IMG/VR virus record: IMGVR_UViG_3300030433_002104
Span: 41,192 to 105,191 of that record
DNA: 64,000 nucleotides
From: a virus
Lineage: Duplodnaviria; Caudoviricetes
Reading direction: 5' to 3' (one strand)
Shown: piece after piece, positions 4,078 to 62,058 of the stretch
Numbering within the stretch: position 1 is the first letter of the stretch
Layout of the letters: each line of letters opens with the position of its first letter
Made by a program: the position numbers and the translations under genes
Notes under the pieces: generated by a model
The model's database searches: none
Told to the model about the DNA's origin: nothing
The model's input: only the letters and a program-made list of their open reading frames with translations

Positions 4078-5709
4078 ATGGACTGGGCTCCACTGTGCAA
4101 CTATACGCACTACAGTTTACTAAAAGGATACTCAAAGCCAGCACAGCTGGCGGCTAAGTGTAAAGAAAACGGTTACAAGTTCTGCGGCATTGCTGATTAT
4201 AAGTCAGTTTCGGGGGCCGTGAACTTTGTTAAGTCTTGTAAAAAGCATGGCGTTAAACCTATCATTGGTTGTAGCTTTGACGGATTCACGCTTTTTGCTA
4301 AGAATATAGAGGGCTGGTTCGACCTCATCAAGCTAATCTCTAGCCTAGATGAGGAAGGCCAGTTATCTCAAAAATATCTTATCTCCATCTGCTCTAAAGG
4401 CAACTTAATTTCTGTTGCAAAAGATGAGAAACTATCCCCAATTTCTGGCGACGACTTCTATAAAAAGACGGAATGGCTCAGAGACATCTATTACTGCGAA
4501 AAAAGTGACGCAGAACTCCACAGAATTTTACTATGTTCTAGTATGAAAAAGACGCTGCCAAAAGTTTACTCAGCGCTAAAAAAACATGAAGAAATTGACA
4601 ACAAAGAGTTCTTCATATCAAACGAATTTCATATGCCTAACAGAACAGAAATCTGCGAGCTAGTAGGTGAAGAGGGTGAACAGGCGGTAACTGAAATTTG
4701 TGAAAAATGTGAAGACTTCGACATCCTAAGAAAGCCATCTCTTCCTACATTTAAGACACCAACAGGAGAGTCTGAAGAAGAGTATCTAAAACAGCTATGT
4801 AGAGAAGGTTGGAGAGACCTATTAATAAATGCTGACAAAGTAAAGGACGAAGATAAAAAGCAACAATACCTAGAACGATTTAAGTCTGAATTTGACGTTA
4901 TCAACGATGCTAATCTTTTCGGGTATTTCCTGATCGTCCGTGACATCATTAATTATGTAGAAAGCAAGGGATGGCTATCTGGGCCGGGGCGAGGTTCTGC
5001 GGCGGGCTGCTTAATCTCATACCTCATTGGTATCACTAAGATTGATCCTATTGAGTTTGATCTACTCTTTGAGAGATTTTATAATAGCGGAAGAAATACA
5101 GAAGACCACGTTTCGTTGCCAGATATTGATATTGACGTGCCGGGCAAGAAACGCGATGAAATAATAACATACCTCAAAGACACATATGGTCATAACAGTG
5201 TTAGTCAGATGCTTACATTCGGCAGACTTCAGGGTAGAAGTGCTATTAAAGAAGTGCTGAGAATGAATGAGGCTTGCTCATTTGGCGAGATGAACGAAAT
5301 ATCAAAAGTCATCCCAAACGAAGCAGATGTATCTGATCAGTTACAGGCTATGGATGAAGAAGATAGGTCTATTATAAAGTATGCACTTATTAATAATCAT
5401 GAAGAACTCAGAGACTATTGTTTTGTAAATGACAATGGCGAACTTGAGGGTGATTATGCAAAATATTTTGAACAGGCGATAGAGATAGAGGGAACATTCA
5501 AGACTCAGGGAAAACACGCAGCGGGCGTTGTAATTTCTTCAGACAACCTGAATGAGTCATGCCCAATGGTTCCTCAAAGAAATAGTGATGAGAAAATTGT
5601 AGGTATTGAAATGACAGACTTAGAAGCATTAGGATATGTGAAGTTTGATGTTCTTGGTATCAACCTTTTAGACAAGATTATGAAAATAGAGGAATTTTTA
5701 GATGCATAG
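4078..5709 (+). CDS. dnaE: DNA polymerase III alpha (DnaE), N-terminal subunit (degenerate PHP plus palm/thumb)
   Basis: HYSLLKG, GPGRGSAAG, LLFERF, PDIDID, GKHAAGVVIS and KFDVLG motifs; ends just after KFDVLG. Confidence 0.95.
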   Translation: MDWAPLCNYTHYSLLKGYSKPAQLAAKCKENGYKFCGIADYKSVSGAVNFVKSCKKHGVKPIIGCSFDGFTLFAKNIEGWFDLIKLISSLDEEGQLSQKYLISICSKGNLISVAKDEKLSPISGDDFYKKTEWLRDIYYCEKSDAELHRILLCSSMKKTLPKVYSALKKHEEIDNKEFFISNEFHMPNRTEICELVGEEGEQAVTEICEKCEDFDILRKPSLPTFKTPTGESEEEYLKQLCREGWRDLLINADKVKDEDKKQQYLERFKSEFDVINDANLFGYFLIVRDIINYVESKGWLSGPGRGSAAGCLISYLIGITKIDPIEFDLLFERFYNSGRNTEDHVSLPDIDIDVPGKKRDEIITYLKDTYGHNSVSQMLTFGRLQGRSAIKEVLRMNEACSFGEMNEISKVIPNEADVSDQLQAMDEEDRSIIKYALINNHEELRDYCFVNDNGELEGDYAKYFEQAIEIEGTFKTQGKHAAGVVISSDNLNESCPMVPQRNSDEKIVGIEMTDLEALGYVKFDVLGINLLDKIMKIEEFLDA

Positions 5710-6376
5710 AGATTATATTGTATTCGACTTTGAAACTGGTTCTAGAAACCCAAGAAAAACACAGCCAACACAGATTGCGGCTTTGGCTCTAGATGGTAGA
5801 AACTTCAAACTAAAGGGAACCTTTAATAGTGAAATCCGTCCAATCTTGGATGATGAAAAGGCTATCGAGATGGGCTTTGACCCACTAGAGGATGAGGCAC
5901 TTCGCATCACAGGTAAGAACAGGGATGATCTGGCTAAAGCACCTATGCCAAAGACGGTATGGAAGAAGTTCTGTAACTTTGTTAATCAATACAATTGGAA
6001 GGGCACACAGTTTTTTGCTCCTATCCCAGCAGGCTTTAATATTATTGGCTTTGATATGATTATCATCGACCGTCTATGTAAGGCATACGGCCCATACGAC
6101 AAAGAGCGAGAGCAGCAAAAGCTCTTTAATAAAATATATAAAGTAGACATGATGGATAATATGTTTATGTGGACTGAAGGAGATCCAGCTGTGAAGTCTA
6201 TTAGTATGGATTCACTTAGGGATAGAATGGGGCTGAGCAAAGAAAATGCCCACGATGCCCTGCAGGACGTAAAGGATACAGCGAACATAATGATTAAATT
6301 TATGAAAACACATAGATCTGTATACAGAAACTTAACTATTGATAAAGCATTTGCGGACGGCGAACTATATGTCTAG
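5702..6376 (+). CDS. dnaQ: DEDDh 3'-5' exonuclease (DnaQ/epsilon-like proofreader)
   Basis: ExoI VFDFETG, ExoII GFNIIGFD, ExoIII HDALQD. Confidence 0.88.
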   Translation: MHRDYIVFDFETGSRNPRKTQPTQIAALALDGRNFKLKGTFNSEIRPILDDEKAIEMGFDPLEDEALRITGKNRDDLAKAPMPKTVWKKFCNFVNQYNWKGTQFFAPIPAGFNIIGFDMIIIDRLCKAYGPYDKEREQQKLFNKIYKVDMMDNMFMWTEGDPAVKSISMDSLRDRMGLSKENAHDALQDVKDTANIMIKFMKTHRSVYRNLTIDKAFADGELYV

Positions 6377-7940
6377 AGAGATTGATTATAACTGCGATAA
6401 AACTTGGGATCTTTTCCACGAAGGCAAGACCAAAGGCGTGTTCCAGTTAGAAAGTAACTTGGGTAAATCTTGGTCTAAGAAATTAAAACCAAGTAATATG
6501 GAAGAGCTATCAGCTCTAATTGCACTAATTAGGCCGGGATGTCTAAAAGCCATCTCTGATGGCAAGTCAATGACCCAGAGATACATTGATAGAAAACATG
6601 GCTTAGAAGATGTAGAATATCTACATGAATCTTTGGAAGAAATACTAAAACCAACGTATGGGGTTCTAGTTTACCAAGAGCAATCTATGAGAATTGCACA
6701 AAAACTAGCAGGGTTTAATCTCCAAGAAGCCGACGTTTTAAGAAAAGCGATTGGTAAGAAGAAGGCAGACCTGATGGCCGAGGTGAAGAAAGACTTTATC
6801 AAAGGTTGCAAGAAAGAAAAGATTGTATCAGAAGAAATAGCAGAAGAGATATTCGGATGGATTGAAAAGTCATCTAGGTATTCTTTTAATAAGTCTCATG
6901 CAGTTGCTTACGGTATGTGTTCTTACTGGAGTGCATACCATAAAGTACATAATACTGAAGAGTTCTTTCTAGCCTATTTATACCACTCAAACGAAAAGCA
7001 GGACGCTCACGAAGAAGTATATGAGCTTGTAACAGACGCAAAGCTTTTCGATATAGAAGTAAAGACTCCTAACATCACCAACTTCTCAGAAAAGTTCAGC
7101 ATGGAAAAGGGCAAGATATACTTTGGTGTTAAGGATATAAAGTCTTTGACCGGCAAGACTGGAGATAAGGTTGTGGCTGGAATAGCTGAACTAAAAGATG
7201 AGCTAGGTAAATCCACCAAGAGTTTTAGTTGGTTAGAAGTATTACTATTTCTAAGTACAAAAATAAACTCTACAGCTTTTAAGGCTTTGGCGTCAGTTGG
7301 TTTCTTCAGGGGTTTCAAAGATAGAATCTCTAGGAATAGGGCGCTGTATGAATATGAAATCTTTCGTGGATTAACAAAGGCTGAGCAGACATGGGTCAGA
7401 GAAAATTACAAGTCAAAGAGATGGCCCGACCTAGCTAGCTGCTTGCAAGACCTTGCCCCCACAAAGAAAGAAGGTGGCGGAACTAGCAAAGTAGAGAGGA
7501 GTCAATATGTACAAAACGAGATCCACTTTCTGCAAAACCCTCCTTATGACTTGTCGGACGACCCATCTTGGGTGGTAGATCAGGAAGTTAAATTCTTAGG
7601 CTGTCCAGTGTCAATGGCAAAGATAGAGGCATCAGATACATCTGCCGCAAATACTAGTTGTAAAGAAATAGTAGACGGCAAAAAGGGTAAAAACCTACTA
7701 GTCGCTGGCAATATTAAAAGAGTAGCTGACTACAGGATTAGCAAGGGCAAATCCAAGGGGAAATACATGAGCTTCTTGACAATAGAAGATGAAAGCTGTT
7801 TACTAGACAGTGTAATAGTTTTCCCAGAATGTAGAGATAAATATCAATACCTACTGTACGAAGGTAACAACCTACTGTTTGGCGGATCGGTCTCTAAACA
7901 GGACGATAGTTTTGTAGTAAATAATATTTTTGAAATTTAA
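6369..7940 (+). CDS. dnaE: DNA polymerase III alpha (DnaE), C-terminal subunit (fingers, HhH, OB)
   Basis: GVFQLES, ALIRPG, TYGVLVYQEQ, LRKAIGKK, YSFNKSHAVAY, OB-type MSFLTIED...VIVFP; likely start ATG 6369. Confidence 0.95.
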   Translation: MSREIDYNCDKTWDLFHEGKTKGVFQLESNLGKSWSKKLKPSNMEELSALIALIRPGCLKAISDGKSMTQRYIDRKHGLEDVEYLHESLEEILKPTYGVLVYQEQSMRIAQKLAGFNLQEADVLRKAIGKKKADLMAEVKKDFIKGCKKEKIVSEEIAEEIFGWIEKSSRYSFNKSHAVAYGMCSYWSAYHKVHNTEEFFLAYLYHSNEKQDAHEEVYELVTDAKLFDIEVKTPNITNFSEKFSMEKGKIYFGVKDIKSLTGKTGDKVVAGIAELKDELGKSTKSFSWLEVLLFLSTKINSTAFKALASVGFFRGFKDRISRNRALYEYEIFRGLTKAEQTWVRENYKSKRWPDLASCLQDLAPTKKEGGGTSKVERSQYVQNEIHFLQNPPYDLSDDPSWVVDQEVKFLGCPVSMAKIEASDTSAANTSCKEIVDGKKGKNLLVAGNIKRVADYRISKGKSKGKYMSFLTIEDESCLLDSVIVFPECRDKYQYLLYEGNNLLFGGSVSKQDDSFVVNNIFEI

Positions 7941-27192: not shown

Positions 27193-27527
27193 TGAAAATT
27201 ACATACACCACAAACAACAAGCGCATTAGCGCTGAAATTGAAGGTGACTCTCACAGAGACATCTTTGAACAAATCAGTAAGTTCCAAGAAGTATTTGAAC
27301 AGAACGTCTGTGGCAAATGTGGATCGGACAATATTAAATTTGTAGTACGAACTGTCGATGACAATCAGTATTACGAACTACGATGTGCTGACTGTGGAGC
27401 GAGACTCTCGTTCGGAGCAAACAAGAAAGGTGGTGGTCTATTTCCAAAGCGTAAGGATAGCGATGGTAATTGGCTCCCTGATTCTGGGTGGGTCAAATGG
27501 AACCCCAAAACTGAGAAGAACGAATAG
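27192..27527 (+). CDS. Zinc-ribbon protein
   Basis: CGKC and CADC pairs, LSFG...LFPKRKD...GWVKW; TAATG-coupled to the upstream gene. Confidence 0.6.
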   Translation: MKITYTTNNKRISAEIEGDSHRDIFEQISKFQEVFEQNVCGKCGSDNIKFVVRTVDDNQYYELRCADCGARLSFGANKKGGGLFPKRKDSDGNWLPDSGWVKWNPKTEKNE

Positions 27528-27535
27528 TTTCAAAA

Positions 27536-27555
27536 GGAGCGCCGCAAGGCGCTTC
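27536..27555. terminator. GC-rich hairpin with GCAA tetraloop
   Basis: GGAGCGCC-GCAA-GGCGCTTC just after the last + strand gene. Confidence 0.55.
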
Positions 27556-27572
27556 TACTCCACAAAATAAAG

Positions 27573-27603
27573 AAAGCCCCAATCCGCGAGGAAAGGGGCT
27601 TTT
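27573..27603. terminator. Bidirectional rho-independent terminator
   Basis: AAAGCCCC-aa-TCC-GCGA-GGA-aa-GGGGCTTTT between convergent gene blocks; A-tract on the left, T-tract on the right. Confidence 0.75.
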
Positions 27604-27624
27604 AATCTTTAATCAGGTTTTTAA

Positions 27625-28347
27625 TTATAGGTACTCTACAGTAAAGTAAAGTCCAAAATTAGTCTTGCTCCCTATGGAGTGAGGGGAAGCACTGATAGCA
27701 ACATACCAATCATGTCGTGTGCTCTCGTGAGCACTACCAGCTGTGGTGGTATAACCTTTAGCAGTGTCAGTATCGGTGCTATTAGTATTCAACCCACTCA
27801 TTCCGGGAGATGATGTGAATGTCATATCAGCAGGTGTGGCACTGTCTTCAGAATCAAACTCAACCCAAGTATTGTCAGCTCTACCTCTAAAATTGAGATT
27901 GCTAACACTTTGGAGTGCTGAAGGATGTCTAACCTCATATACCATAGTAGAAACCTCACTAGCATGGGTGTTAATGTCGTTTCTATCAAAGATTCTCAAC
28001 TTACAGTTCTGCACTTTTACAGCTGTAGTATGAGTAAATCTAACGTTTAATGGAGCAAGATAGTTTGGCAAGTTTGCCAAGTCTGCTATAGAAGCTCCAT
28101 CAGCCAAGACTCCAGAAGTACCTTTATCGTACTTATTGTTGTGCAACTGAATATAATCAGTGGCTGTACCATCAGAGTTCGTGGTAAAAGTAGTATCTTG
28201 GAAAGTGTCTACAGGTACAGAAATACCGTATCCACCCCCATAAAAACCAAGGCCAGAACCAGCCGTGTGGTTTATTTTTACATATCCAGCGTCACCACTA
28301 GTGCTCGTAGCGGTAACGTTATTCGCATAAAAGTTAATTTCAGCCAT
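27625..28347 (-). CDS. Putative virion structural protein
   Basis: Beta-rich S/T/G composition, last gene of the structural block, own promoter motif and RBS AGGAG. Confidence 0.6.
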   Translation of the reverse strand: MAEINFYANNVTATSTSGDAGYVKINHTAGSGLGFYGGGYGISVPVDTFQDTTFTTNSDGTATDYIQLHNNKYDKGTSGVLADGASIADLANLPNYLAPLNVRFTHTTAVKVQNCKLRIFDRNDINTHASEVSTMVYEVRHPSALQSVSNLNFRGRADNTWVEFDSEDSATPADMTFTSSPGMSGLNTNSTDTDTAKGYTTTAGSAHESTRHDWYVAISASPHSIGSKTNFGLYFTVEYL

Positions 28348-44000: not shown

Positions 44001-47000
44001 AAGGTTTCATATCTAAGCCAAGATCTGAACATAGTACATCTACATATCTAGCAATTGACTGATCTACATCATAAGTAATTACTAATGTTTTATTACCCTG
44101 ATTTAGGAAGTCTTTGATATTTTCTATATCTTCTTCGCTAGCAAATCCATTTGGATTGGCAATCCAGCCTACGTCATAAAAATTGTTTATCACGCCTTCT
44201 ACGTTCTCAGATATGCCGTGACCTTTAGATTCAAGCATAACTTTGATCACTGAATCATCTTTGGCTGATTTGAATGATGTTCTGCCAGTCCAGCCGCCAA
44301 GTTGCGCGATACGACTCTTCTTGTCTGGGCAAGCCTTTCTTACCAAGTTGGTGTAGAACAGAATACTTTCATCGTTTCCAGCATAGAGGTTTTCCCTTTC
44401 CTCTGATGTCACAGAGGCAATAAGAACAACCTTAGATAGTTTATCAAGATATGCCCAGTTTTGTTCTGCCGCTACTGGAGATTGATTTATAACCTCTTTG
44501 TTTTCTTCAATTGTATCGGACTTAGTTGAACCAATAGCCTGTATAACAGCGTCCCTTCCTAAATAAGCGTCTGGATCAATGTAATTAACCTGATTGAATG
44601 TAGTTATACCACTATCTTCTGGCTCAATTAATTCAAATGCTTTTCCAATAGGATTGTCACTAAAGCTGTAAGTAGTTACTGTGGTGTTCTTTTCTGTGGT
44701 TCTCTTTTCGTAGACTGGAACCATAGTAATTTTTTCAAAAGAAGGATATACGATGCTAGAGGCTGGTATACGCTCAGCAGCTGCGACCAATGGTTTAGGT
44801 TCTTGATTTGGTCTAGCTATGACGCCCTGTAAGTCAGACTTTGGATCACAACCAGCTGAGCCATTGCCAAACACCCAAGGCCAGTTTATATACTCTTTTA
44901 TCTTACGGCCTTTTTCGTCTGCACACTCTATTGCTTTTTGTGCTCTTAAATCTCCATTGCTTAGCATTGGAATAGGACAAGCCTTATTCAAAGAATCACA
45001 CTCACCTGTGTAGGCATCTCCAAATCTAGCAACTATGTTATCCCACTCTGGAATATTCATTCTAATATCTGCAACACCCTTAGCGTAAATACCGCCTCTA
45101 GATATCTTGCTATCCCTTGAGTACTGTGGGTCTTTCGCAATGATAGTATTTGGCTTGCCAGACTCTGGACAATTGTACAGAGACTCATGTCGGTTTCTGG
45201 CTGGGTGCAGTCTCATCTCTGATCCTAGCTTTTCTAAGATCTCATTAAGGATGTCATTTGATTTAGAGTACACTCCGCCGTTTTCCCAAACCGGGTCGTT
45301 ACCTACAAGTACCAAAGTTCTATCACCAAGAGCCATCCAATTCTTAATCTGACCAATTATTTCATCACTGGCAGCATCAACTTCTGGAGTAATAATAAAT
45401 GCTAGCCCAGCATCTGTTGGTATAGATATGTCAGTGAACGCTGTTCTAGTGAATGACCTATTTACGCCATTAAATATGCCCGAAAGATCAAATGTTCCTG
45501 AAGCTTCGAGGTGCGGATTGAGCGATCTGTGCAAATTACCAAACTTGTAATATTCTACAACACCACTGTGTGGGTGATATTTTCTGGACTCAAATACTCT
45601 TACGGCTCCAGTATTTGTAGTAGATGCCCAGCCATCAAGAGCTGTGTAGGTGGTACTATCAGGTGGGAAGCCATACCCAAGATAGCCGCTAGGTCTGAAG
45701 TAAACATTCGTATCATCGTTTACATTAAAGCTATCTGTTGGAGCGCCAACCGCAACCATTGTACCGTCTTCATTGACTGCCACGCTGTAACCAAGCCTTG
45801 AAGAGCCAGTCAATTCTTCTGCAACAAATCCCCAAGTACCTGTGTAATTGATGTCATTGTAACCATAATTGTAGATGTTGCTGTATTCTTCTATGGCCAT
45901 GTCGCCGCTTTGAGGTACAACCACGCCAACAGACTTAAAGAAGTCTTTGTCTCTTCTGTATTCAAACCTATCAGTGTCAGATAGTTCTGTGAATACTTTT
46001 CTAGCTGCTGCATCAGCACCGCTAACTGCGGCGTATGCATTGTAGTTGCTTAACTCGCTAGCATATGTACCTTTATCCGTTAACCAAGATACCAAGTGTT
46101 CATATATCTTAGCGGCATTTTCTGGCTTGTACTCAAACACCATACAGTTCTTTTCAGTCAAATATGGAGAGCCAATGGTTATTACTTCACAGTTTTCACT
46201 TATTGCCACAGAGTGACCAAACCTATCAACTGGAACCCCAAGTGCTTCAGCGGGCGATTTTATCTCTTGTGTTAAGTCCCAAGTGCCCGATGCAATTCTC
46301 TCATAGACATATACTCTACCACCACTTTCAGCGGGAGTGTTAAACTCTGCGAGTTCGGCGTTAACAAATTCAGGCCCGATTCCAGAGGCGAGTAATCCAG
46401 ACCCACCAGTCACATCTAGGATGCCACTGTCCAATATATCGTTAATAACCGTAGTGGCGTAATGAGTCCAATCGTCTGGTATATTACCTTCTGGGTCTCT
46501 TTCATCATCTGTTAGGAAGTGCTCGTGGACAACTCCAGAACTTTGCTCGCCGTACCAGTTTACAATACCACTAGCAAAAGTATAGTCTTGATAGTAACCT
46601 TTGAATTGGTCGATTGCTGGTTCAACACTCTCACGACCAAACGAAGGCGTTGGGTCTACATAAATGCCTAGTATTGGTGGCAAGCCGCTATACGCCAAGT
46701 TGCCATCATATGGGAACGCCTTATTAAAGCCTTCCTTAATGCCGCTGAGTATGGAAGATGTGGTAGCTCCATCAACTCCGTTTCTGTCTATCTTCTGATG
46801 TATAACCCAAGATGGCAGTGCGGACAGGTCAGTTGAGAATGGCTTAGTTTCACAGACTATTAGTTTGATATCTATCTCTACGGCAGGATCTGCGTAGTAT
46901 CTAAGGACTTGGTTCTTTGCCGCTATTTTATCTGTAATTTGCTTAATGTTCAGCGGCTTTGGATTAAACTCGTCTGTTATAACAATAGCGCCCAATGTTA

Positions 47001-59718: not shown

Positions 59719-60762
59719 TTACCTCTTGAATTTATCCTTAAACATTTGATTTTGTCGTGTTGTCATTTTCAACTGTTCATCTCGGAATTGGTCTTGACCA
59801 ACCTGCCCTGATGACGCTCTTATCTGTGCATTCCTCTGGCGCTTAACTATCTTTGCGTGAGTAGTATTCATGTTGTCAATTTTTTCAGCTTCTTTTTGGT
59901 TGTTCGCAAATACAAAAATCTCACCAGCACCTTTGATTCTTTCATTCTTAGTAGAGTTCTCAAAATCATTCTGAGCGCTCTCAACTTCTCGTTTCTTTCT
60001 TTGTACAATAAACCAGCCGTCTAAAACATCGTCGTCATTAATAACATCTTCTGACGGTGTTTCGGCGGCTTCTTGTATATTATCATACATCATAGACCAT
60101 ACAACTAAATTTTTTTGGTCTACCGTTAATTCCTTGTCCGCATTTGAAAATAGCTCAAACTTGACCTTATCATTTAGTGCCCATATCGAACGCCAAGGCT
60201 CATTACGAGCAAGTTCTCTGATTTGTTTCTCGGATAATACCTGTTGTTGTTGGAGAGAAATTATTTCATCAAGTATTACATCTGAAAACTTAAATCTGTC
60301 ACCATTACAATAAGTTGAGTTTTGAACCAACCACCTGTGTTGCTCAGTCTTTGCGAATCCTTCGCAGGTGTTTGCAATGAACTGAGTTTTCTTTTGGAGC
60401 CTTTCTACCAATGCCCTTTCCGCCGCTCTTAAATATCTACGTGCTGCTTCTTTTACATCGTCCTTATTTCTATTCTCATACATCTGAACACGTAACTTAT
60501 CTATATCTTTTTTAACCCCTTTTATTACGTTGTCTTCCTCTTTAGACCACAAACCTTTTTCTAACATCCACTCTTCCATCTCGTCCTCAGTCATTATACC
60601 GTCTTGGGACGCTTCTTCATAAGCTTCTTGGTATACTAGGTTTGATTCTAATTCCTGTTCTATGTCGTGCGGTCTAATAATCAATCTTAAGCCTGCATGT
60701 TTGACTATGTATAGACCTGATCTGACTCTAGATACAAAATACTCCCGCGTATGCTGCTTCAT
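59719..60762 (-). CDS. Hypothetical helical protein, chaperone position after the tail tube
   Basis: Charged helical 347-aa ORF (IRELARNEPWRSIW, DDDVLDGWF). Confidence 0.6.
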   Translation of the reverse strand: MKQHTREYFVSRVRSGLYIVKHAGLRLIIRPHDIEQELESNLVYQEAYEEASQDGIMTEDEMEEWMLEKGLWSKEEDNVIKGVKKDIDKLRVQMYENRNKDDVKEAARRYLRAAERALVERLQKKTQFIANTCEGFAKTEQHRWLVQNSTYCNGDRFKFSDVILDEIISLQQQQVLSEKQIRELARNEPWRSIWALNDKVKFELFSNADKELTVDQKNLVVWSMMYDNIQEAAETPSEDVINDDDVLDGWFIVQRKKREVESAQNDFENSTKNERIKGAGEIFVFANNQKEAEKIDNMNTTHAKIVKRQRNAQIRASSGQVGQDQFRDEQLKMTTRQNQMFKDKFKR

Positions 60763-60786
60763 TACAAAACCTCATAGCGGGAGTAC
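60739..60786 (-). promoter_or_regulatory. Long RNA hairpin enclosing the RBS and start codon of the 347-aa gene
   Basis: TACTCCCGC (60740-60748) and GCGGGAGTA (60777-60785) form a perfect inverted repeat, extended by TATG/CATA. Confidence 0.7.
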
Positions 60787-60797
60787 ATATATATCAT
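60762..60797 (-). CDS. Putative 11-aa leader peptide (MIYMYSRYEVL)
   Basis: Strong RBS AAGGAAGGA; start context GAAGGATTAATTATG identical to that of dnaE-N; stop overlaps the next ATG (TAATG). Confidence 0.6.
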   Translation of the reverse strand: MIYMYSRYEVL

Positions 60798-60882
60798 AAT
60801 TAATCCTTCCTTAGCCGCAAGCCACTTGCTTTCCTAAACAGCTATCGCAAACTGCGGCGTATATCCAAATAGTATCAAACTA

Positions 60883-62058
60883 CTATTTATTAAACACACC
60901 CAAGCCAAAGCGAGCAACGCCTGATTGGTGAGGTGAGTAATTCAATGTGCCGCCATTACCAAGTGCAGCCAGTGCTGGGTCACCACTCGAAATAACATCT
61001 AAGTCATTGAAGTTGGTAAAGCTGTAAGTAATACTTACGTTACCACCAGTAGCGTCACCACCACCGTAACTTACAGAAGCAAGTCTGTTTTTGACGCCGA
61101 GGTCAAAGCATGTTGCGTTTTCCAAGGTTAACATGATGGCTTCTTCTCTAGTATTGTTACCGGATGCGATAGTAGCGCTTTCGCCATCATCAAACAGTGC
61201 TGGATCACCGTACTCGTAAGCACCAATGAAGTCACCGGAAATTGCAATCATTTCGATTTCACAGCTAACTTCGATTGGGAACGTGGTAGCTCTATAGTAT
61301 GGAGCTTTTCTACCAAGTTCTAAGATGTCTTCTCTTGAGAAGTCAGTACTTACATTAAAGCTTTGGAAGTGAACACGAGGGATCTTATTGCTACTATCGT
61401 AACCATTTCCAAGACCACTACCATTTGTACCGTGAATATCTCTTGGGAAGACACAGTTTGATAGCAGCACATTTTCTCTTCTTTGAATACCACCAAGGCC
61501 GGAAGACACAGGTGAATCAGAACCAAAGTTATTGCCTGCAGGATTAAGGTTAGTACTGGTGTCTCTTAACCAAGCTTTGTGATTACCAACTAAAGTAATC
61601 GACTCAGTTGCCATTCCATCTACAGGGATGCTGTAACTGACAGAGGAAATATACATACCAGACATGTCAACTTGAACTTGAGGCTTGTTGGCATTTATAG
61701 CGCCCTGCTCACCAACATAGTCAAAGCCGTCATTCCAGATACCAAGAGCCACGTCACATCGTTCTTTAGAACGGCCAACAAGACCATTTGAGGTTGCCCT
61801 TGGTGACGCTAGGTGATACAAAAGTGGAGCTCCGTCGATAACCTTTTCCATGGTTACTTCAACATCTGGAGTACCTTCGATGTTTTCATAAATCTGAATC
61901 TGGCCAAGCTCAAAAGCCTGTTCCAAATTAAAGTTAGTTGTAATTCCTACGCTCTGCACACCCTTAGCAATCTCATACTCAGTTGCTGCGTGGCCCATAT
62001 TTTTGAAGCCAACAGCTTGGCAGGCATAGAAAATTCTATTATTTGCTGATATAGCCAT
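60883..62058 (-). CDS. Major tail (tube) protein
   Basis: GVQSVGITTNFNLEQAFELGQIQIYE, with an internal duplicate FSREDILELGRKAPY; position between neck and chaperone/TMP genes; own promoter and strong RBS. Confidence 0.7.
   Translation of the reverse strand: MAISANNRIFYACQAVGFKNMGHAATEYEIAKGVQSVGITTNFNLEQAFELGQIQIYENIEGTPDVEVTMEKVIDGAPLLYHLASPRATSNGLVGRSKERCDVALGIWNDGFDYVGEQGAINANKPQVQVDMSGMYISSVSYSIPVDGMATESITLVGNHKAWLRDTSTNLNPAGNNFGSDSPVSSGLGGIQRRENVLLSNCVFPRDIHGTNGSGLGNGYDSSNKIPRVHFQSFNVSTDFSREDILELGRKAPYYRATTFPIEVSCEIEMIAISGDFIGAYEYGDPALFDDGESATIASGNNTREEAIMLTLENATCFDLGVKNRLASVSYGGGDATGGNVSITYSFTNFNDLDVISSGDPALAALGNGGTLNYSPHQSGVARFGLGVFNK

What the first reader, a model, noticed from the sequence alone, without database searches (positions are those of the whole stretch)
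60739..60812. Leader peptide plus start-codon hairpin: translational switch after the tail tube gene
Seen: on the mRNA, a ~14-bp stem (GUACUCCCGC-UAUG pairing with CAUA-C-GCGGGAGUAU) encloses the RBS and AUG of the 347-aa gene. Its 5' arm lies inside an unannotated 11-codon ORF (MIYMYSRYEVL, three Tyr) with a strong RBS. The ORF's 15-nt start context is identical to that of dnaE-N, and its stop overlaps the downstream AUG (UAAUG). Inference: ribosomes on the leader melt the stem and reinitiate, metering chaperone output relative to the tube protein; sensing of Tyr-tRNA or a phage factor is possible.
Basis: partly seen in the sequence, partly recalled or inferred. Interest (0 to 1): 0.75.

Follow-up and report, generated by a model that had tools for sequence, protein, structure and literature searches.

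The report
Leader-opened hairpin gating phage tail gene
Just after the tail-tube gene of an uncultured aquatic phage, a very stable and strongly conserved RNA hairpin buries the start site of the next gene, and a tiny upstream reading frame probably lets ribosomes pry it open; this is a new, well-supported example of a known kind of expression throttle.

Summary
On the minus strand a 14-pair stem (60786-60773 with 60753-60739) encloses the GAGG and AUG (60762) of the 347-aa gene. An 11-codon uORF (60797-60762) with a strong SD reads through the 5' arm and ends in UAAUG.

The same hairpin occurs in all 70 distinct related phage contigs examined. Evidence for selection at the RNA level:
- Compensatory changes occur at six pairs.
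- Arg codon 6 in the 3' arm is CGG in 69 of 70, against 1.9% elsewhere in the same genes.

An SD-led uORF crossing the 5' arm is present in 57 of 70, and in 46 of 46 in the window's clade. It uses all three frames and its peptide is not conserved, so translation matters rather than the peptide. Tyr sensing is not supported.

Thirteen basal sequences keep the hairpin without a uORF. In 68 of 70 the stem is followed by a terminator-grade U tract.

Best reading: uORF ribosomes melt a hairpin that masks the start site, as in R1 tap/repA or Salmonella mgtQ/mgtB. The hairpin probably also acts as a partial intrinsic terminator after the tube gene. No expression data could be obtained. The upstream gene is a T5 pb6-like tail tube; the "chaperone" label for the 347-aa gene is unverified.

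The parts
60804..60812 (-). Shine-Dalgarno of the leader uORF (AAGGAAGGA)
   Evidence: Read. An AAGGA-type purine block is invariant in alignment A1. It is kept even in the 13 relatives that lack a uORF start codon.
60762..60797 (-). 11-codon leader uORF (MIYMYSRYEVL, stop TAA overlapping the main ATG as UAAUG)
   Evidence: An SD-led uORF crossing the 5' arm is present in 57 of 70 distinct relatives. It uses frames 0/1/2 in 25/13/19 sequences and is 4-17 codons long. The peptide is not conserved.
60773..60786 (-). 5' arm of the hairpin (GUACUCCCGCUAUG), inside the uORF
   Evidence: 90.4% of cells are paired, against 35-55% when the partner is slid. Six pairs carry double-sided changes.
60760..60773 (-). 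SD (GAGG) and AUG of the 347-aa gene, in the internal loop, inner helix and apex of the hairpin
   Evidence: the start codon is enclosed by the hairpin in 70 of 70 relatives. GTG replaces ATG in two relatives, which confirms it is the start.
60739..60753 (-). 3' arm of the hairpin (CAUA-C-GCGGGAGUAU), codons 4-8 of the 347-aa gene
   Evidence: codon 6 is CGG in 69/70, against 1.9% of Arg codons elsewhere in the same genes. Codon 7 is GAG in 68/69, against 29%. Codon 4 is CAT in 52/53, against 58%.
60731..60739 (-). U tract directly after the stem (UUUUGUAUC; codons Tyr-Phe-Val)
   Evidence: the U-tail score is -4.61 here, with a median of -4.65. It lies in the top 5% of positions of its own gene in 68 of 70. 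TTT is used in 89/94 Phe codons against a 78% background.
59719..60762 (-). 347-aa gene controlled by the element. It is all-helical, of unknown family, and lies between the tube gene and the tape-measure gene.
   Evidence: The N-terminus M-K/N-x-H/Y-E-R-E-F/Y-F is conserved.
60883..62058 (-). Upstream 391-aa tail tube gene (double-domain, T5 pb6-like)
   Evidence: Foldseek hits to T5/DT57C/P74-26 tail tube proteins at E 1.5e-8 to 2.6e-5; language-model neighbours carry Phage_tube_2.
60814..60858 (-). Conserved upstream stem-loop (SL1). A variable outer helix closes an invariant core, UGCGAUAGC ... GGA ... GCRAGU. It ends 1-2 nt before the leader SD.
   Evidence: The core is present in 37 relatives and the outer helix forms in 34 of 35 single folds. 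No Rfam match.

Best explanation
The hairpin is a conserved throttle at the junction between the abundantly needed tail tube gene and the downstream tail-assembly genes.

Left alone, it locks the SD and AUG of the 347-aa gene inside a stem of about -24 kcal/mol, so 30S subunits cannot load. Ribosomes that start at the strong, unstructured leader site translate the short uORF straight through the 5' arm. They stop within a few nucleotides of the main AUG. While they are there the stem is melted, and the main site can be used either by the terminating ribosome or by a fresh 30S. The main gene is therefore made at a fixed, low fraction of leader initiations. This is leader-peptide translational coupling of the R1 tap/repA and Salmonella mgtQ/mgtB type.

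The peptide itself carries no information.

In basal relatives without a start codon, the same purine-rich SD-like block probably serves as a ribosome standby site.

The hairpin most likely has a second role as a partial intrinsic terminator that lowers transcription beyond the tube gene. That would explain why it is kept even where the uORF is absent.

Shown here: the structure, its selection at the RNA level, conservation of the uORF, and the geometry. Inferred: that the uORF is translated, that it activates the main gene, and that termination occurs.
For: 1. Structure and selection.
- MFE z = -4.16.
- It is the most structured start site of 46 genes in the window.
- The same hairpin encloses the AUG in 70 of 70 distinct relatives, at -17.9 to -29.4 kcal/mol.
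- 90.4% of cells are paired, 6 pairs and 22 cells carry double-sided changes, and 0 of 500 shuffles reach the observed covariation score. Slid controls give 35-55% paired.
- 33 G-U cells fit a sense-strand RNA, not a DNA cruciform.
- Synonymous sites in the 3' arm are frozen: CGG 69/70 against 1.9%, GAG 68/69 against 29%.

2. uORF.
- It has a strong SD and an AUG, with a 15-nt context identical to that of a real gene.
- It is present in 57/70 relatives and in 46/46 of the window's clade.
- All three frames are used, with at least 14 forced frame changes on the protein tree.
- Stops fall at -15 to +14 of the main AUG.
- By the same loose criteria, only 4 of 46 gene starts in the window have such a uORF.

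3. No competing upstream structure for the 5' arm exists (median -4 kcal/mol), so only a ribosome can open the stem.

4. Precedents.
- mgtQ/mgtB: an intergenic uORF releases an RBS held in a stem-loop (PMC8092293).
- R1 tap/repA and IncI2 repR/repA (PMC8053102).
- Ribosome standby at structured RBSs (PMC5934652).

5. Terminator add-on.
- The GC-rich base stem is followed by a U tail scoring a median -4.65, in the top 5% of its own gene in 68/70.
- There is excess TTT/TAT and no ATC or GTC in codons 8-10.
- The phage uses canonical intrinsic terminators at its convergent junction 27527-27625.
Against: - There are no expression data of any kind.
- 13 of 70 relatives, in at most three basal clades, lack the uORF yet keep the hairpin. 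The uORF is therefore not essential to the hairpin's function.
- The leader AUG lies only 11 nt before the stem base (4-18 nt before the conserved UCCC core of the arm in relatives). Leader initiation may itself be hindered once the hairpin has formed.
- The U tract is also coding sequence for conserved hydrophobic residues (Tyr/Phe-Phe-Val/Ile). Part of its conservation may be protein-driven.
- The hairpin interior is long for a classical terminator, and the simple scan does not call it.
- The 70 sequences are related, so the counts are not independent.
Confidence: 0.55

Rival explanations
1. The element is primarily a transcription attenuator. The hairpin plus U tract is a partial intrinsic terminator placed after the tube gene. 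A ribosome on the uORF that follows RNA polymerase closely occupies the 5' arm and prevents termination, as in pyrBI-type ribosome-mediated antitermination. On this view the enclosure of the start site is secondary.
For: - The U tail is terminator-grade in 68/70, and strongest (-5.27) in the clades without a uORF.
- Synonymous sites after the stem prefer U.
- An A-rich run precedes the 5' arm in the clades without a uORF.
- Bona fide terminators of the same style occur in this phage.
- Ribosomes that stop within a few bp of a terminator repress it (PMC4824070).
- The position, after a gene needed in high copy number, is where phages place partial terminators (own knowledge, for example T7 T-phi).
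Against: - It does not explain why the SD and AUG of the next gene sit at the apex of the hairpin in 70/70.
- The whole path from the leader AUG to the U tract is about 65 nt. Terminators within the first 100 bp of a coding region work efficiently because the ribosome lags behind (PMC4824070), so antitermination by this uORF would be weak.
- The interior of about 26 nt is atypical for a terminator.
- The closest relative by tube protein, L014, has a poor tail (-2.89).
Confidence: 0.22
2. The hairpin is an operator or processing site recognised by a trans-acting factor. Candidates are a phage or host protein that represses the start site, as MS2 coat protein does on the replicase start hairpin, or a double-strand RNase. 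The uORF would then be incidental or auxiliary. The conserved SL1 and the repeated GGA motifs could be part of the same binding platform.
For: - The core CUCCCG/CGGGAG is almost invariant in primary sequence across proteins only about 40% identical. That is more than stability alone requires.
- The adjacent SL1 has an invariant core and a GGA loop right next to the leader SD.
- In IncI2 plasmids a protein (PcnR) binds a stem-loop at the leader start to control coupling (PMC8053102).
Against: - No candidate factor has been identified, and there is no CsrA gene in the phage record.
- The invariance of the 3' arm can be explained by a coding constraint added to a pairing constraint.
- uORF maintenance through many frame switches argues that it is not incidental.
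Confidence: 0.1
3. The leader senses an amino acid or tRNA. Ribosome stalling at the three Tyr codons of the leader would modulate opening of the stem.
For: Three Tyr codons occur among the 11 codons in this window.
Against: - The leader is read in three different frames in relatives.
- Peptides range from MKLP to 17-mers with no shared residues beyond those forced by the arm sequence.
- There is no alternative antiterminator or anti-sequester structure.
Confidence: 0.02

Closest known systems
Leader-peptide translational coupling in plasmid replication control (R1 tap/repA; IncI2 repR/repA; ColIb-P9 repY/repZ)
   Same: A short ORF with its own RBS ends at or over the start of the main gene. 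The main gene's start site is held in a stable structure and is translated only when the leader is translated (PMC8053102 and Blomberg et al. 1992, cited there).
   Different: - No antisense RNA or pseudoknot is evident here.
- The context is a phage virion-gene operon, not a replicon.
- The hairpin's 3' arm lies inside the main coding sequence and is followed by a U tract.
Salmonella mgtQ uORF between mgtC and mgtB
   Same: An 8-codon ORF in an intergenic region of an operon. Its translation frees the RBS of the next gene from an inhibitory stem-loop (PMC8092293).
   Different: mgtQ depends on specific acidic codons that destabilise the ribosome. Here no codon or residue is conserved.
Ribosome standby and the MS2 coat and replicase start hairpins
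   Same: The start codon is displayed in a stable hairpin. An unstructured flank recruits 30S subunits that wait for the hairpin to open (PMC5934652). This would fit the 13 relatives with the SD-like block but no uORF.
   Different: In most members of this family the flank carries a real start codon and ORF. No repressor protein is known.
Ribosome-controlled intrinsic terminators (pyrBI-type attenuators) and partial terminators after major virion genes (for example T7 T-phi; own knowledge)
   Same: A GC-rich stem followed by a U tract, with a leader ORF reading into the terminator. The position is after a gene needed in large amounts.
   Different: - The terminator loop here contains the SD and AUG of the next gene.
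- No regulatory codons and no alternative structure are present.
- Termination is not demonstrated.

Membership tests
Leader-peptide (uORF) translational coupling through an inhibitory hairpin | A stable structure sequesters the SD and start codon of the downstream gene | tested here: met
   (70/70 enclosed, median -24.2 kcal/mol). Covariation.
Leader-peptide (uORF) translational coupling through an inhibitory hairpin | A short ORF with its own RBS reads through one strand of that structure and ends close to the downstream start | tested here: met
   57/70, with stops at -15 to +14. 46/46 in the window's clade.
Leader-peptide (uORF) translational coupling through an inhibitory hairpin | Translation of the downstream gene depends on translation of the leader | not testable with these tools
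   Needs reporters or toeprinting.
Leader-peptide (uORF) translational coupling through an inhibitory hairpin | A trans regulator (antisense RNA or protein) acts on the leader start, as in R1 and IncI2 | not tested
   Only a conserved neighbouring stem-loop (SL1) was seen. Promoter-like hits are at chance level.
Intrinsic (Rho-independent) terminator | A GC-rich stem immediately followed by a U-rich tract | tested here: met
   The base stem has 9-10 pairs, 6-7 of them G-C. The U-tail median is -4.65, in the top 5% of its own gene in 68/70.
Intrinsic (Rho-independent) terminator | A compact hairpin with a short loop (3-8 nt) | tested here: not met
   The interior is about 26 nt with two weak inner helices. 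The consensus scan does not call it.
Intrinsic (Rho-independent) terminator | RNA 3' ends at the U tract | not testable with these tools
   No reads were available.
Amino-acid-sensing leader attenuator or stalling peptide (trpL, ermCL type) | Conserved regulatory codons or a conserved arrest peptide | tested here: not met
   Three frames are used and no conserved peptide exists.
Amino-acid-sensing leader attenuator or stalling peptide (trpL, ermCL type) | Mutually exclusive alternative structure | tested here: not met
   The region upstream of the 5' arm folds at a median of -4 kcal/mol.
Any Rfam family | Covariance-model match | tested here: not met
   only a chance hit at E 4.7 outside the element.

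The most novel reading that the evidence does not exclude
The whole 120-nt tube-to-next-gene spacer is one new composite phage riboregulator, made of the invariant-core stem-loop SL1 with a GGA loop, the leader uORF, and a hairpin that is both start-site mask and terminator. A trans factor would bind SL1 and the adjacent leader SD. Candidates are free tube protein, the 347-aa protein, or a host GGA-binding regulator of the CsrA type. Through the single leader ribosome, that factor would set both read-through and translation, tying tail-assembly protein output to tube supply.
Probability: 0.15. Interest if true: 0.7.

Novelty: new member of a known kind. Interest (0 to 1): 0.5.

Why it matters
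Tailed phages must make hundreds of tube subunits but only a few copies of the proteins encoded just downstream. How the ratio is set is known for a handful of model phages, mostly through frameshifting and weak ribosome-binding sites.

This is a cis-acting RNA device that is absent from Rfam. It is conserved in at least 70 distinct contigs of a widespread, uncultured aquatic siphophage lineage with a T5-like tube. The comparative signals are unusually clean:
- compensatory changes in the stem;
- a rare CGG codon fixed in 69/70;
- a uORF kept through many frame switches.

It gives a compact, directly testable natural part: a hairpin that masks a start site and looks like a terminator, with a built-in ribosome-dependent release. 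It also shows that uORF-mediated coupling, known from plasmids and a few bacterial operons, is used in phage virion operons.

Tried and rejected
Searches that found nothing:
- Cultured-phage database by DNA and by both proteins: no match.
- Pfam and PHROGs on six neighbouring proteins: nothing.
- PDB by profile for both proteins: nothing.
- Fold search for the 347-aa model (pLDDT 85): no match at E <= 0.001 in PDB or BFVD.
- Rfam: nothing.
- Exact-pattern scan of 185,579 prokaryote genomes for prophage copies that might reveal the host: none.
- A first pattern search of the phage's own record missed even the window copy, because the gap was one base too short.
- CsrA gene in the phage record: none.

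Method that failed: RNAalifold on the SL1 alignment found only two pairs, because MAFFT puts the variable outer helix out of register. Single-sequence folds were used instead.

Readings considered and rejected:
- Tyr-sensing leader. The frames and the peptide are not conserved.
- N-terminal extension, frameshift or bypass joining the uORF to the main ORF. Frames differ, and the three in-frame cases have stops before the AUG.
- A DNA-level cruciform or packaging signal. There are 33 G-U cells, which would be A-C mismatches on the other strand.
- A two-state switch with an anti-sequester helix.
- A second copy of the arm at 46331, which lies inside a 3800-aa gene and has no partner.

Full report
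**What is there.** The genes in this part of the window run on the minus strand, in this order:

| Gene | Coordinates | Identity |
|---|---|---|
| 391 aa | 62058-60883 | tail tube (below) |
| 120-nt spacer | | the element studied here |
| 347 aa | 60762-59719 | unknown family |
| 119 aa, 300 aa | | not identified |
| 1970 aa | | tape measure, PhageMin_Tail |

- SD AAGGAAGGA at 60812-60804.
- Leader ATG at 60797, eleven codons (MIYMYSRYEVL), and a TAA that overlaps the main ATG (60762) as UAAUG.
- A stem in which GUACUCCCGCUAUG (60786-60773) pairs with CAUA-C-GCGGGAGUAU (60753-60739).
- The main SD (GAGG, 60773-60770) and the AUG sit in the interior, with the AUG at the apex.

RNAfold returns this hairpin as the minimum-energy and centroid structure, with z = -4.16 and 0 of 200 shuffles as stable. 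Among 46 gene starts in the window, this one is by far the most structured: -30.2 kcal/mol, against -18.8 for the next and about -10 at the median. The 15-nt start context shared with the 543-aa gene at 4078 is real, and that gene is the N-terminal half of a split DnaE. The match shows that the leader has a gene-grade initiation site. It does not by itself show co-regulation.

**Relatives.** No cultured phage matches, either by DNA or by the two proteins. IMG/VR holds many relatives. After removing duplicates, 70 distinct leaders were compared. The 347-aa proteins are only about 40-50% identical.

**The hairpin is a selected RNA structure.** Every one of the 70 leaders folds into the same hairpin enclosing the main start, at -17.9 to -29.4 kcal/mol with a median of -24.2. 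On a 24-sequence alignment:
- 90.4% of cells form standard pairs, against 35-55% when the 3' partners are slid.
- Six pairs and 22 cells show changes on both sides.
- No shuffle in 500 reaches the observed covariation score.

Examples of compensation are CCCGU/ACGGG, UUCCCG/CGGGAA, AUCCCG/CGGGAU and GUG/CAC. A Tyr/Phe codon change at position 8 is matched by U to A/G at the base of the 5' arm. Thirty-three G-U cells show that the pairing is in the sense RNA, not in DNA.

The 3' arm is coding sequence (codons 4-8), and its synonymous sites are frozen:

| Codon | Usage in the arm | Usage elsewhere in the same genes |
|---|---|---|
| Arg-6 | CGG 69/70 | 1.9% of Arg codons |
| Glu-7 | GAG 68/69 | 29% |
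| Glu-5 | GAG 52/63 | 29% |
| His-4 | CAT 52/53 | 58% |

Distant homologues that lack the hairpin (L031, L032) also lack the N-terminal M-K-Q-H-E-R-E extension. The extension therefore seems to exist largely to encode the arm.

**The uORF is selected for being translated, not for its peptide.** An SD-preceded start (55 ATG, 2 GTG) upstream of the 5' arm opens an ORF that reads into or through the arm in 57 of 70 leaders. One more leader has an SD-AUG-UAA start-stop.
- The ORFs are 4-17 codons long.
- They use all three frames relative to the arm (25/13/19 for frames 0/1/2).
- Their peptides share nothing beyond what the arm sequence forces.
- Their stops fall between -15 and +14 of the main AUG. 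The conserved AUGA and CAUGAG strings supply stops in the two non-zero frames.

On a protein tree, all 46 sequences of the large clade that holds the window have a uORF, although the frame changed many times (at least 14 changes are forced). The 13 without a uORF fall into at most three basal, AT-rich groups. By the same loose criteria, only 4 of 46 gene starts in the window have an SD-led uORF nearby. These results remove the Tyr-sensing idea. There is also no alternative partner for the 5' arm upstream (median -4 kcal/mol), so this is not a two-state attenuator.

The 13 leaders without a uORF keep both the hairpin and the purine-rich SD-like block, so the hairpin has a function of its own. 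In addition, the stem is followed directly by a U-rich tail (UAUUUUGU or UUUUUUAU).
- Scored in the TransTerm manner, the tail has a median of -4.65. It lies in the top 5% of all positions of its own gene in 68 of 70 cases, at a median percentile of 0.001. It is strongest (-5.27) where the uORF is absent.
- The tail encodes Tyr/Phe-Phe-Val/Ile, residues that are partly conserved in hairpin-less homologues, so protein constraint contributes.
- Synonymous choices nonetheless also favour U: TTT 89/94 against 78%, TAT 32/34 against 70%, and no ATC or GTC among 69 Ile/Val codons.
- The phage uses canonical intrinsic terminators at its convergent junction at 27527-27625.

The hairpin therefore has the anatomy of an intrinsic terminator whose loop carries the next gene's start. 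Its interior of about 26 nt is atypical, however, and the simple scan does not call it.

**Mechanism.** The best-supported reading is leader-peptide translational coupling. Ribosomes that load on the open, strong leader site unwind the 5' arm and terminate next to the main AUG, which exposes the main SD and AUG for re-initiation or fresh initiation. This is how R1 tap/repA and IncI2 repR/repA work (PMC8053102), and how the intergenic uORF mgtQ activates mgtB (PMC8092293). In the relatives without a uORF, the SD-like block may act as a standby site (PMC5934652).

I consider it likely, at roughly even odds, that the hairpin also terminates part of the transcription coming from the tube gene. Terminators within the first 100 bp of a coding region work efficiently because the ribosome lags behind (PMC4824070). 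The short uORF is therefore more likely to rescue translation on read-through transcripts than to prevent termination.

**Identity of the neighbours.** The 391-aa protein is a double-domain tail tube protein. The AlphaFold model (pLDDT 69, pTM 0.74) matches T5 pb6, DT57C and P74-26 tube proteins at E 1.5e-8 to 2.6e-5. Its language-model neighbours carry Phage_tube_2. The 347-aa protein gives a confident all-helical model (pLDDT 85) with no fold or family match. "Chaperone" is a guess from its position.

**The rest of the spacer.** Directly upstream of the leader SD lies a second conserved element, SL1 (60858-60814).
- A variable outer helix forms in 34 of 35 single folds.
- It closes an invariant core, UGCGAUAGC ... 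GGA ... GCRAGU.
- It has no Rfam match.
- In one distant relative (L031), SL1 sits directly before the main gene's own SD, with no uORF or hairpin.

A hairpin over the tube stop codon is followed by a further GGA. These features suggest a binding platform for a trans factor acting on the leader start, as PcnR does in IncI2 plasmids. This is speculation.

**Verdict.** Its optional sensing idea is rejected, and a terminator-like second face is added. This is a new RNA family of a known mechanistic kind.

Noticed in passing
window 60814-60858 (-): SL1 is a conserved stem-loop with a variable, covarying outer helix. It has an invariant core, UGCGAUAGC ... GGA ... GCRAGU, and ends 1-2 nt before the leader SD. 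The core is present in 37 relatives and there is no Rfam family. It may be a binding site for a regulator of the leader start.
   Followed up: partly
window 60863-60887 (-): An AU-rich hairpin overlaps the tube gene's stop codon and is followed by UGGAU. Relatives show the same hairpin-then-GGA arrangement. With the GGA in the SL1 loop and the GGAs of the leader SD, the spacer carries three to four GGA motifs, a pattern reminiscent of CsrA-type targets. The phage record has no CsrA gene.
   Followed up: partly
L031:4030-4130 (+) and L032: Distant homologues of the 347-aa gene lack the hairpin, the uORF and the N-terminal M-K-Q-H-E-R-E extension. In L031, SL1 sits directly before the gene's own SD.
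   Followed up: partly
L028 / L030 (same contigs as L095 / L106): In two relatives an extra gene lies between the tube gene and the 347-aa homologue. The hairpin and a short uORF stay with the 347-aa gene.
   Followed up: partly
window 27527-27625: The convergent gene junction has two GC-stem hairpins with flanking A and U tracts (for example AAAGCCCC ... GGGGCUUUUAAUCUUU). These are canonical, probably bidirectional, intrinsic terminators.
   Followed up: no
window 4078-7940 (+): DnaE is split into a 543-aa N-terminal gene (PHP plus Pol III alpha) and a 533-aa gene (finger plus HhH), with a 224-aa ORF between them.
   Followed up: no
window 59719-60762 (-): The 347-aa protein gives a confident all-helical model (pLDDT 85) with no match in PDB or BFVD. 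It may be a new fold at the position where tail-assembly chaperones usually lie.
   Followed up: partly
L027:4115-4160 (+): One relative has a minimal start-stop (SD, AUG, UAA) immediately before the 5' arm instead of a longer uORF.
   Followed up: no
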